Positions 21,057-55,570 of a DNA stretch of 64,000 nt are shown here, piece by piece (positions within the stretch are counted from its first letter, which is position 1; each line of letters begins with the position of its first letter). The translations under genes and the position numbers were made by a program. The DNA comes from Candidatus Brocadiia bacterium. Lineage in GTDB: Bacteria; Planctomycetota; MHYJ01; JACQXL01. The notes beneath the pieces were generated by a model. That model saw nothing but the letters and a program-made list of their open reading frames with translations. It was not told where the DNA came from and ran no database searches. The stretch lies in assembly GCA_041658285.1 (NCBI GenBank), contig JBBAAP010000002.1, forward strand, positions 119,029-183,028, written 5' to 3'.

Positions 21057-21315
21057 CTTATGCCGGTGGCATAGTATATTTGTGCCACGTACATAATAGC
21101 CTTGTGCCGGTGGCATAGTATACTTGTGCTACGTACATAATAGTCTTGTGCCGGTGGCATAGTATACTTGTGCTACGTACATAATAGTCTTGTGCCGGTG
21201 GCATAGTATACTTGTGCTACGTACATAATAGTCTTGTGCCGGTGGCATAATATACTTGTGCTACGTACATAATTGGCTTATGCCGGTGGCATAGCAGACT
21301 TGTGCCGGTGGCATA
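21057..21315. repeat. Tandem array: five 44-bp units (each a 22+22 A/B dimer) plus two extra A subunits
   Basis: Units start at 21057, 21101, 21145, 21189 and 21233, with extra A subunits at 21277 and 21299. A=cttgtgccggtggcatagtata, B=cttgtgctacgtacataatagt. Confidence 0.95.
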
Positions 21316-21487
21316 AACGGTTTAAACCTATAAGGAGAGAGTTGGTTTTTGTATTTTGAAGGCGTGTACACCGAGAGCAAAGCCTCCCGCAGGGGCAATT
21401 TTTGTCACTTTGCCCTCAAAAACCCCTGATTTTAGGCAAAAAGTGACGATTTTTGTCATTTCTGATGTGTGTAGCGCCTGCAGGGTG

Positions 21488-50690: not shown

Positions 50691-50811
50691 CCCCGGCAGT
50701 GACCTACTTTCCCACCGAATAAATCATCAGTAGTATCATTGGCCCCAAGGGCTTAACGGCCGTATTCGAGATGGGAACGGGTGTGGCCCCTTGGGAATTG
50801 GACCACCGGGA
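50691..50811 (-). rRNA. rrf: 5S rRNA
   Basis: CCCGGTGG...ACACCCGTTCCCATCTCGAATAC..GTTAAGC..GGGAAAGTAGGTCACTGCCGGG. Confidence 0.93.
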
Positions 50812-50912
50812 GTTAAAAATAAAACGTACAATACGCTGGCAGCTTTAAGCAGCTATTACTGCCAGTCATAGCCGGCTTTAACAGCCGACTATATGGGCTC
50901 AAGGATAAAAAA

Positions 50913-53946
<3,034 letters not shown>

Positions 53947-54000: not shown

Positions 54001-54064
54001 GACCTTAACTGCCGGGACTATTCCCCTGTTACAAGGAATAATTTTATCGGCAAACAAGTCTGGT

Positions 54065-54093
54065 ACATTAGCAAACGGAAAAGTCCTTGTCAA
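54065..54093 (-). promoter_or_regulatory. sigma70 promoter of the 23S-5S operon
   Basis: TTGACA-17 nt-TAATGT with an AT-rich upstream region. Confidence 0.8.
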
Positions 54094-54345
54094 GTATTTT
54101 TATTGTTTTATAAAAAAATATATTAACCGCGGATTTTACGGGTTTAATAAATTTACTATTATACATTTAATCAGACAAATATGCAGTTTGTGTTTATTCA
54201 TGATTTTATAGATAACACCTTATGCGAATCACGATCAAAACCATTCAAAATTTTAGGGGCTTGACTGTACTTACCCTGAAACAAACCAAAATCTGCCCTG
54301 CAAAAATGGCATATCCACTATGAAATGCCAAGGTGTACAGAAATT

Positions 54346-54697
54346 GATTTATAGTAGTTATGAATAAGATTTATGATGGTTACGGACAGAATTCATAGTG
54401 ATTATGAATAAGATTTATACTAGTTATGGGCATGATTTATGATGCTTATGAATAAGATTTATAGTGGTTATGGACAGGATTTATAATGGTTATGAACAGA
54501 ATTTATGATGGTTATGAATAAAACTTATAGTAGTTACGAACAGGATTTATACTGGTTATAAATAAAACTTATAGTGGTTATGAACAGGATTAATAATGGT
54601 TATGAATAAGATTTATAGTGGTTATGAACAGGATTTATAATGGTTACGAATAAGACTTATAATGGTTATTAACAAGATTTATAGTGGTTATGGATAA
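54346..54697. repeat. Tandem array of sixteen degenerate 22-bp units
   Basis: Consensus gatttatagtggttatgaa(c/t)a(g/a); units every 22 bp from 54346 to 54676 with no indels. Confidence 0.95.
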
Positions 54698-54916
54698 GTA
54701 TCCAGGTGGTATAGGGGTAGGGTACCCCCACCCCCTTGAGCCAAATATGCATTATATTAGGATTTAGGCGCGAAAAAAAACTTATTTGCCGAAAACAGCA
54801 CATGGGAAAGGGCTAAATTACTGCGTTATTATGCCAGAGACAGCATGCCAAAGGCAGACAAGAATTCCGTTTCGAGAGAACAAAATCCAGTGGTCTATCC
54901 CGCCTACCACCCCTAC

Positions 54917-55570
54917 TCACACTTTTCCCTTATCAGGCTTCGAGCGGTGGCGCCAGAATTCTATGGCCACCGGCAGTACGGAAATGATTATTATGGCCAG
55001 TATCACCAGCGAAAAGTTGTTCTTGACGAACGGCACATTGCCGAAATAGTATCCGGCGCCGATGAAAAGCCCCACCCATAAAACGGCGCCGATGACGTTG
55101 GCCGTAAAGAAATACAAATAGCCCATCTTGCCCATGCCGGCCACGAACGGCGCAAAGGTGCGGACAATCGGAACGAACCGGGTCAGGATGATGGTCTTGC
55201 GCCCGTGCTTTTCGTAAAACCGGTGCGTCCGGTCCAGGTATTCTTTCCTGAATATGCGGGATTTATCGTCCTTGAACAGCCTCTGGCCGAACAGTCGGCC
55301 AACGGCGTAGTTGACGGTGTTGCCGATTATGGCCGCCGCGGTCAGCAATAGGAACAGCCACCAGGAATTGAAAGAACCGGTGGCGGCAAACGCGCCGGCC
55401 GCAAAGAGCAATGAATCACCGGGCAGGAACGGCGTGACCACGAATCCGGTCTCAGAGAAAATAATCAAGGCCAGCAGGCCGTAAGACCATACCCCGAAGT
55501 TCTGGATGATAACACTGAGGTATTTGTCCACGTGGAGGACGAAATCTATGCCGTTTTTAATAAAGTCCAT
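54917..55570 (-). CDS. DedA (SNARE-associated/VTT) family membrane protein
   Basis: FSETG..PFLPGDSLLFAAGA, RFVPIVRTFAPFVAG. Confidence 0.95.
   Translation of the reverse strand: MDFIKNGIDFVLHVDKYLSVIIQNFGVWSYGLLALIIFSETGFVVTPFLPGDSLLFAAGAFAATGSFNSWWLFLLLTAAAIIGNTVNYAVGRLFGQRLFKDDKSRIFRKEYLDRTHRFYEKHGRKTIILTRFVPIVRTFAPFVAGMGKMGYLYFFTANVIGAVLWVGLFIGAGYYFGNVPFVKNNFSLVILAIIIISVLPVAIEFWRHRSKPDKGKV

What the first reader, a model, noticed from the sequence alone, without database searches (positions are those of the whole stretch)
54346..54697. Sixteen-unit, indel-free 22-bp degenerate array upstream of the rRNA promoter
The units vary by substitution only. The TTAT-N5-TTA core and the 22-bp phase are preserved, and the unit ends largely alternate (aataa versus a/gacag), giving a loose 44-bp higher-order repeat like array 1. 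Strict phase with drifting sequence suggests selection on spacing, for example phased protein binding, DNA bending or an unwinding element, rather than a neutral VNTR. It has stop codons on both strands.
Basis: partly seen in the sequence, partly recalled or inferred. Interest (0 to 1): 0.55.

Follow-up and report, generated by a model that had tools for sequence, protein, structure and literature searches.

The report
Capped 22-bp minisatellite beside rRNA promoter
The 16-unit 22-bp repeat upstream of the 23S-5S rRNA operon is real. It is one old, AT-rich copy of about 100 such arrays scattered between genes in this planctomycete genome, and it is not a conserved part of the rRNA promoter.

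Summary
Window 54346-54697 holds 16 head-to-tail 22-bp units with no indels, 79% mean pairwise identity and a 44/66-bp higher order. Every frame has stops. The array lies 253-604 bp upstream of the -35 of the only 23S-5S promoter.

The rRNA-specific reading does not hold. The genome carries 101 arrays of period 21 or 22, 0.87% of its DNA, with many unrelated unit sequences. This one has the family's usual cap: a G-run/C-run hairpin followed by a conserved motif of about 100 nt. That cap recurs next to different 22-bp arrays here and in related genera.

The same-genus relative keeps the rrn promoter but has no array. The 16S promoter has none either. The array sits at a junction of gene order found only in this genome.

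It is not a replication origin and not predicted to be strongly curved. It has no plasmid or phage match. Being indel-free is ordinary for the class (66 of 94 arrays).

Two things stand out. It is the most AT-rich array of the family, and it is the least stable 350-bp duplex in the window.

This scan has already described the family on other DNA of this genome. The closest published analogue is the BrickBuilt minisatellite MITE of Porphyromonas gingivalis. Function is unproven.

The parts
54346..54697 (.). 16 x 22-bp spacer-less tandem array, 26% G+C, consensus GATTTATAGTGGTTATGAAyAr
54714..54735 (+). G-run/C-run cap hairpin GGGGTAGGGTACCCCCACCCCC. A 10-bp stem is predicted on the minus-strand RNA/ssDNA. 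It is identical in a genome of another family of the same order.
54740..54768 (+). Cap motif 1 (GCCAAATATGCATTATATTAGGATTTAGG), conserved in primary sequence among paralogous caps
54781..54828 (+). Cap motif 2 (CTTATTTGCCGAAAACAGC...GGGAAAGGGCTAAATTACTGCGTTA). It ends the dispersed-repeat homology and also occurs separately beside another array. It overlaps the weak terminator-like hairpin plus T8 downstream of dedA on the minus strand (listed below).
54776..54800 (-). Weak terminator-like hairpin plus T8 run downstream of dedA, partly inside cap motif 2
54310..54324 (-). Single inverted unit-like 15-mer, 13/15 complementary to the unit core, 22 bp outside the promoter-side end of the array. 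Of marginal significance.
54065..54093 (-). 23S-5S promoter, TTGACA-17-TAATGT, with an A/T-rich stretch just upstream. Conserved in the same-genus relative up to about 20 bp beyond the -35.
50691..53944 (-). 23S and 5S rRNA genes, unlinked from the 16S gene
54917..55570 (-). DedA/VTT-domain membrane protein gene, whose 3' end faces the cap

Best explanation
The array is an old, single-copy member of a lineage-specific family of dispersed non-coding modules. Each module is a spacer-less 22-bp tandem array joined to a cap. The cap is a GGGGTAG-type G-run/C-run hairpin followed by a conserved motif of about 100 nt. Shown: the family, its cap, its spread and its preference for gaps at gene 3' ends. 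Inferred: modules spread as array-plus-cap units into tolerated intergenic sites. Arrays then grow and shrink by whole units or blocks of 2-3 units through slipped-strand or unequal recombination, which keeps the 22-bp register without selection. Unit sequences meanwhile drift by mostly transition mutations. This copy came to lie at a junction specific to this genome, between the liv-dedA operon and the 23S-5S promoter. It is not part of the ancestral promoter. Its only likely local effect (inferred, untested) is physical. As 352 bp of 26% G+C DNA, it is the easiest place to melt under the negative supercoiling generated behind the rRNA polymerases, and it generates weak promoter-like hexamers.
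For: Family: 101 of 125 tandem loci in the 2.59-Mb genome have period 21 or 22. They total 22.6 kb in 72 gaps.

Cap: the array's right flank, 54710-54828, has paralogues of 79-85% identity at seven other loci. Six of them were each seen beside a different 22-bp array. Of 14 cap motifs, 10 or more show the order array-hairpin-motif. Of 68 22-bp arrays, 60 have a G5/C5 run and 35 have GGGGTAG within 150 bp, against 4 of 33 21-bp arrays. Relatives in the same genus, the same family and another family of the order carry the hairpin beside their own 22-bp arrays.

Dispersal: the same unit-plus-cap module lies in unrelated gene contexts in G000 and G001.

Location bias: 40% of occupied gaps are convergent, against 12% background (p about 1e-9).

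Not an rrn feature.

Drift: higher-order 44/66-bp structure, 45:6 transitions to transversions, and invariant sites that are all A or T. The family-wide ts:tv is 1.7 and 66 of 94 arrays are indel-free.

Melting: least stable 350-bp duplex in the window and second in the genome. It is also the lowest-G+C array of the 101.
Against: No terminal inverted repeats, target duplications or empty site were found for this copy. Its left flank is unique, so mobility is inferred, not shown. The sharp restriction to 21/22 bp across unrelated unit sequences is not explained by drift alone. It may reflect a helical-phase constraint or a binding protein. All five paralogues of a triple HTH_17 protein have a 22-bp array directly upstream, so at least some arrays are probably protein-binding sites. 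That the most AT-rich array of 101 lies next to the strongest promoter class could be more than coincidence.
Confidence: 0.6

Rival explanations
1. Phased protein-docking platform. Each 22-bp unit, about two turns at the roughly 11 bp per turn of underwound bacterial DNA, binds one copy of a lineage-specific DNA-binding protein. This would form a filament as Xis/BldC-type or iteron-binding winged-helix proteins do, here acting as an insulator or organiser between the liv-dedA and rrn operons.
For: The period is fixed at 21/22 in 101 arrays despite unrelated sequences. Five of five genes for a protein with three HTH_17 (excisionase-type) domains have a 22-bp array immediately upstream. The units lack dyad symmetry, which fits head-to-tail binding to direct repeats. 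The hairpin is conserved letter for letter across families.
Against: No such gene lies near this array. Its unit matches no other array consensus better than shuffles do, and it occurs nowhere else in 41 genomes or the metagenome collection. The HTH-linked arrays lack the G/C cap seen here. The variable positions look like plain transition drift.
Confidence: 0.2
2. Selected upstream element of the rRNA promoter. The AT-rich array would act as a supercoil-driven unwinding sink or upstream activating region that tunes the single 23S-5S promoter.
For: It is the least stable 350-bp duplex in the 64-kb window and the second in the genome. It is the most AT-rich of 101 arrays. It lies directly upstream of a promoter that should generate strong negative supercoiling.
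Against: It is absent upstream of 23S in the same-genus relative and in ten other relatives' loci. It is absent upstream of the 16S promoter. It lies at -253 to -604, beyond the usual reach of UP/Fis-type activation (established knowledge of E. coli rrnB P1). Predicted curvature is not above that of its own shuffles.
Confidence: 0.12
3. Iteron array or origin of an integrated plasmid or phage, or the chromosomal origin.
For: 22-bp tandem direct repeats are classic for iteron plasmids (R6K, pPS10; recalled knowledge). Some units carry TTATGAACA, one mismatch from the relaxed DnaA-box consensus.
Against: GC skew is uniformly negative along the whole 433-kb contig and dnaA is on another contig. 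The neighbours are dedA, liv transporter genes and rRNA, with no rep, par or integrase gene. There is no plasmid or phage match. About 100 such arrays per genome cannot all be origins.
Confidence: 0.02
4. Assembly artefact, meaning a collapsed or mis-joined repeat.
For: Tandem repeats are error-prone in metagenome assemblies, and reads are not available.
Against: The array is internal to a 433-kb contig with unique flanks. Its units differ from each other in a structured way, which collapse would erase. About 100 similar arrays are resolved in the same assembly, and others are resolved in independent assemblies of relatives.
Confidence: 0.03

Closest known systems
BrickBuilt minisatellite-containing MITE of Porphyromonas gingivalis (Klein et al. 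2015, PMC4596501)
   Same: Both are spacer-less tandem arrays with a unit of about 22 nt (23 nt in BrickBuilt) and 1 to about 23 copies. Both have imperfect units with conserved and variable positions, conserved flanking sequence, and many intergenic copies per genome (19 copies or 0.44% there; 101 arrays or 0.87% here). Both have a limited host range.
   Different: BrickBuilt copies share one 23-nt unit and have a leader and a tail with terminal inverted repeats. Here each array has its own unit sequence. Only a one-sided cap is conserved and the other flank is unique. No inverted-repeat ends were found. Promoter activity is untested.
REP/BIME elements of proteobacteria (GTAG-tagged palindromes; BIME-2 tandem clusters)
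   Same: Both are dispersed, G/C-rich hairpin elements that carry a GTAG tetranucleotide. Both accumulate in gaps at the 3' ends of genes, especially convergent ones, have a mosaic modular build, and can occur in tandem.
   Different: The repeated 22-bp units here are not palindromic. The one Y1_Tnp (RAYT-like) gene of the genome is flanked by a different hairpin.
Plasmid iterons (R6K gamma ori, pPS10; 22-bp units) and Xis/BldC-type filaments on direct repeats
   Same: A 22-bp direct-repeat period without dyad symmetry. Some family arrays sit in front of genes for multi-winged-helix HTH_17 proteins.
   Different: There is no replication gene, origin signature or plasmid homology here. Sixteen units is far more than typical iteron sets. 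No cognate protein is known for this unit.
rrn upstream activating regions (UP element, Fis sites of E. coli rrnB P1)
   Same: A/T-rich DNA upstream of a consensus rRNA promoter.
   Different: Those elements lie within about 150 bp of the promoter and are conserved. This array starts 253 bp away and is missing in the nearest relative and at the 16S promoter.

Membership tests
Capped 22-bp array family of this planctomycete lineage (defined in this scan, not in the literature) | Spacer-less tandem units of exactly 22 bp, intergenic and non-coding | tested here: met
Capped 22-bp array family of this planctomycete lineage (defined in this scan, not in the literature) | GGGGTAG-type G-run/C-run hairpin within a few tens of bp of one array end | tested here: met
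   Hairpin at 54714-54735, 16 bp from the array. Of 68 22-bp arrays, 35 have GGGGTAG within 150 bp.
Capped 22-bp array family of this planctomycete lineage (defined in this scan, not in the literature) | Conserved motif AATATGCRTTATATT following the hairpin, in the order array-hairpin-motif | tested here: met
BrickBuilt-type minisatellite MITE | Leader and tail flanks ending in terminal inverted repeats | tested here: not met
   Only the right-hand cap is repeated. The 250-bp left flank is unique in the genome.
BrickBuilt-type minisatellite MITE | The same unit sequence in all genomic copies | tested here: not met
   The unit is unrelated to all other array consensuses and has no other hit.
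BrickBuilt-type minisatellite MITE | Promoter activity of element segments | not testable with these tools
   Only consensus scans are available: 10 promoter-like sites against 5.3 +/- 2.5 in shuffles.
Iteron-type replication origin | Adjacent initiator (rep) gene, or an origin signature such as a GC-skew switch or dnaA/dnaN neighbourhood | tested here: not met
rrn upstream activating region | Conserved position upstream of rRNA promoters in relatives and at the other rrn promoter | tested here: not met
REP/BIME | The repeated unit is an imperfect palindrome (hairpin) | tested here: not met
   Dyad score z = -0.39 for this unit. Only 3% of 22-bp units reach p<=0.05.
REP/BIME | Cognate RAYT (Y1 transposase) flanked by the same hairpin | tested here: inconclusive
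   One Y1_Tnp gene is present, but it is flanked by GGGGACACATCCCA-type hairpins, not by the cap hairpin.
CRISPR array | Repeats separated by unique spacers | tested here: not met
   The units abut without spacers.

The most novel reading that the evidence does not exclude
The 21/22-bp arrays are helically phased docking platforms for lineage-specific direct-repeat-binding proteins, such as the triple HTH_17 family. This unusually AT-rich copy would have been co-opted as a topological buffer or unwinding sink that insulates the single 23S-5S promoter from the liv-dedA operon reading into it.
Probability: 0.12. Interest if true: 0.7.

Novelty: new variant of a known kind. Interest (0 to 1): 0.35.

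Why it matters
For this locus, the result is mainly corrective. An eye-catching repeat next to an rRNA promoter should not be annotated as an rRNA control element, a replication origin or an iteron set.

The wider point is the family. About 100 arrays in one genome keep a 21- or 22-bp period while their sequences are unrelated. Many carry a hairpin cap that is conserved across genera. This is not described in the literature I could search.

Notes from this scan report similar 21-23-bp-period families in other phyla. I did not check those. If the period reflects a physical ruler, such as two turns of underwound DNA or a protein filament, these arrays would be a tractable system for studying how bacterial minisatellites arise and what they do to local DNA topology.

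Tried and rejected
- Origin of replication: GC skew is flat-negative over the contig and dnaA lies elsewhere.
- Plasmid or phage remnant: no blastn hit.
- Known RNA family: only a chance MicF hit at E=0.25. The cap paralogues share no consensus structure beyond the hairpin.
- Intrinsic curvature: the wedge model gives 17 degrees per 21 bp, against 14.9 +/- 2.3 for shuffles and 42-53 for phased A-tract controls.
- Hairpin units: no dyad symmetry.
- CRISPR-like polar growth from the cap: no gradient of unit divergence in 19 capped arrays (mean rho -0.02).
- Units seeded from the hairpin arm: in-register identity of the next flank unit is 35% on both the cap and non-cap sides.
- Ancestry of the unit: the best match to another array is 14/22, the same as shuffles give.
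- A special deamination signature near rrn: transition-dominated variation is common in the family.
- Strain variants: two exact-pattern scans of metagenome contigs found nothing.
- Cap motif across GTDB species representatives: found only in one MAG, JAZDFB01, whose two contigs carry the same numbers (16 and 149) and match positions as the cap hits in the same-genus relative.
- Literature searches for 22-bp tandem repeats in Planctomycetes: nothing.

Full report
OBSERVATION

The sequence at 54346-54697 is 16 abutting units of exactly 22 bp, with consensus GATTTATAGTGGTTATGAAyAr.
- There are no indels. Mean pairwise unit identity is 17.3/22.
- Units two apart are more alike (18.1) than neighbours (16.1). 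TRF also scores a 66-bp order.
- Nine positions are invariant, including the TTAT-N5-TTA core.
- Every frame has 11-14 stops. No ORF of 40 aa or more lies wholly inside the array; a 44-aa ORF at 54669-54803 overlaps only its last 29 bp.

Rfam places 23S at 50913-53944 and 5S at 50691-50810 on the minus strand, with no 16S gene. The promoter reads TTGACA (54093-54088), 17 nt, TAATGT on the minus strand. The array therefore spans about -253 to -604.

NOT SPECIFIC TO rRNA

TRF on the whole 2.59-Mb assembly finds 125 tandem loci with three or more copies. Of these, 101 have a base period of 21 (33 loci) or 22 (68 loci). Together they make up 22.6 kb, or 0.87% of the genome, with dozens of unrelated unit sequences.

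The genome has one 23S and one 16S gene. The 16S promoter region has no array.

In the same-genus relative, the rrn promoter and its A/T-rich upstream stretch are conserved to about 20 bp beyond the -35. Homology then stops, and a 381-aa ORF follows with no repeat. None of 11 relatives' loci upstream of 23S holds an array. In the same relative, the livF orthologue has a different neighbour, with no dedA and no array. The array therefore lies at a junction of gene order specific to this genome.

WHAT IT BELONGS TO

A conserved cap lies immediately right of the array. It consists of:
- the hairpin GGGGTAGGGTACCCCCACCCCC (54714-54735);
- a motif, GCCAAATATGCATTATATTAGGATTTAGG;
- a second motif that ends near 54828.

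This 120-nt stretch has paralogues of 79-85% identity at seven other loci of the genome. Six of them were each seen next to a different 22-bp array. A fuzzy search finds about 14 true copies of the first motif. All lie within about 215 bp of an array, mostly in the order array-hairpin-motif.

A G5/C5 run lies within 150 bp of 60 of 68 22-bp arrays, and GGGGTAG within 150 bp of 35 of 68. For 21-bp arrays the counts are 17 and 4 of 33. The two periods therefore mark different sub-families.

Relatives of the same genus, of the same family and of another family in the order carry the hairpin beside their own 22-bp arrays. In the other-family genome the hairpin is letter-for-letter identical.

One unit family together with its cap lies in unrelated gene contexts in this genome and its congener. 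This indicates that modules disperse as array plus cap.

Arrays occupy 72 gaps under a crude ORF-based gene call. Of these, 40% are convergent gaps, against 12% of all gaps (p about 1e-9). Dispersed elements such as REP/BIME are known to collect in such gaps, where insertions do little harm.

This copy's unit is private:
- it resembles no other array consensus better than shuffles do;
- it has no other hit in 41 genomes or in metagenome contigs;
- its left flank is unique.

THE PROPOSED MECHANISMS, TESTED

Selection on spacing. Being indel-free is the norm in the family (66 of 94 arrays). The family-wide ratio of indel to mismatch positions is 0.057, which from general knowledge is about the usual level for non-coding DNA. 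Zero indels in one 352-bp array is therefore not evidence of selection. The invariant positions are all A or T, and the variable ones are almost all G/A or T/C (45 transitions to 6 transversions). Transition-dominated variation is common across the family. Drift explains the "core".

Bending. A wedge-model calculation gives modest curvature. It is not above shuffles of the same bases and is far below phased A-tract controls (parameters recalled from memory).

Unwinding. By nearest-neighbour energies, the array is the least stable 350-bp duplex of the window (z about +3.9) and the second least stable in the genome. It is also the most AT-rich of the 101 arrays, at 26% against a mean of 47%. Opening under negative supercoiling is physically plausible but untested.

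Origin. GC skew never changes sign along the 433-kb contig, and dnaA is on another contig. There is no plasmid or phage similarity. The neighbours are a DedA/VTT gene and a LivF-type ABC ATPase.

Protein binding. All five paralogues of a protein with three HTH_17 domains have a 22-bp array directly upstream. Some arrays are therefore very probably binding sites. Those arrays lack the G/C cap, and no such gene is near this one.

Other negative tests. The 22-bp units have no dyad symmetry. Unit divergence shows no polarity relative to the cap. The cap-side flank shows no in-register similarity to the unit. The cap motifs share no RNA structure beyond the hairpin.

COMPARISON WITH WHAT IS KNOWN

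The closest published system I could find is BrickBuilt of Porphyromonas gingivalis. It is a spacer-less 23-nt minisatellite inside a MITE with leader and tail, present in 19 intergenic copies, with promoter activity (PMC4596501).

The present family shares the kind of repeat, its size and its genomic habit. It differs in three ways: each array has a private unit sequence, only a one-sided cap is conserved, and no terminal inverted repeats were detected.

REP/BIME elements share the GTAG-bearing G/C hairpin and the bias toward gene 3' ends, but not the non-palindromic units. Iterons share only the 22-bp period.

Earlier follow-ups in this scan described the same family on other DNA of this genome and of another genome. 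My independent counts agree with them on the family. My tests do not support the idea that arrays are seeded from the hairpin.

VERDICT

This is a real repeat and a typical, though old and unusually AT-rich, member of an undescribed lineage-specific family of capped minisatellites. It lies by the rRNA promoter by accident of rearrangement rather than by design. Its function, if any, is unproven.

Noticed in passing
G000:C1:445159-445494 (L043:1165-1200 and 1925-1945): The genome's single Y1_Tnp (RAYT-like) gene is bracketed by inverted GGGGACACATCCCA hairpins. These differ from the 22-bp array cap. They may be the cognate REP of another repeat family.
   Followed up: partly
G000:C2:29583-30854; C12:33259-34005; C4:105300-106211: Several 21-bp arrays lie in frame inside long ORFs, since 21 bp is seven codons. 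Some 21-bp 'arrays' may therefore be coding heptad repeats rather than intergenic DNA.
   Followed up: no
window 54044-54059 and 54780-54795: A 16-nt inverted repeat, 14/16 complementary, links the rrn leader (conserved in the congener) to cap motif 2. My estimate is that it is about as likely as not to be chance.
   Followed up: partly
window 21057-21316; also G000 C8:67403, C10:180, C9:97524, C3:250995: Window array 1 (44-bp higher order) is part of a larger multi-copy element. Its flanks are conserved: a C-rich block on one side and a 'gagagttggtttttgtattttg' block on the other.
   Followed up: no
window 54348-54663, + strand: Each unit junction creates a TTTATA-18-TATAAT-like pair. There are 10 promoter-like sites against 5.3 +/- 2.5 in shuffles, all pointing away from rrn and antisense to dedA.
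   Followed up: no
G000:C6:25794-26571: This is the longest array, about 35 units of 22 bp with the unit sequence drifting along its length. It is the least stable 350-bp duplex in the genome.
   Followed up: no
G004:C29 (L003, L034): In a same-family genome, the 23S gene and the livF orthologue lie 186 kb apart on one contig. In this genome the liv-dedA operon abuts the rrn promoter, with the array at the junction.
   Followed up: partly
G000:C6:110629-110926 and C13:1-260; C3:17425-17648: Near-perfect (98-99%) 66-bp tandem repeats lie at two contig ends and at one internal site. They differ in kind from the 22-bp arrays and probably cause an assembly break.
   Followed up: no
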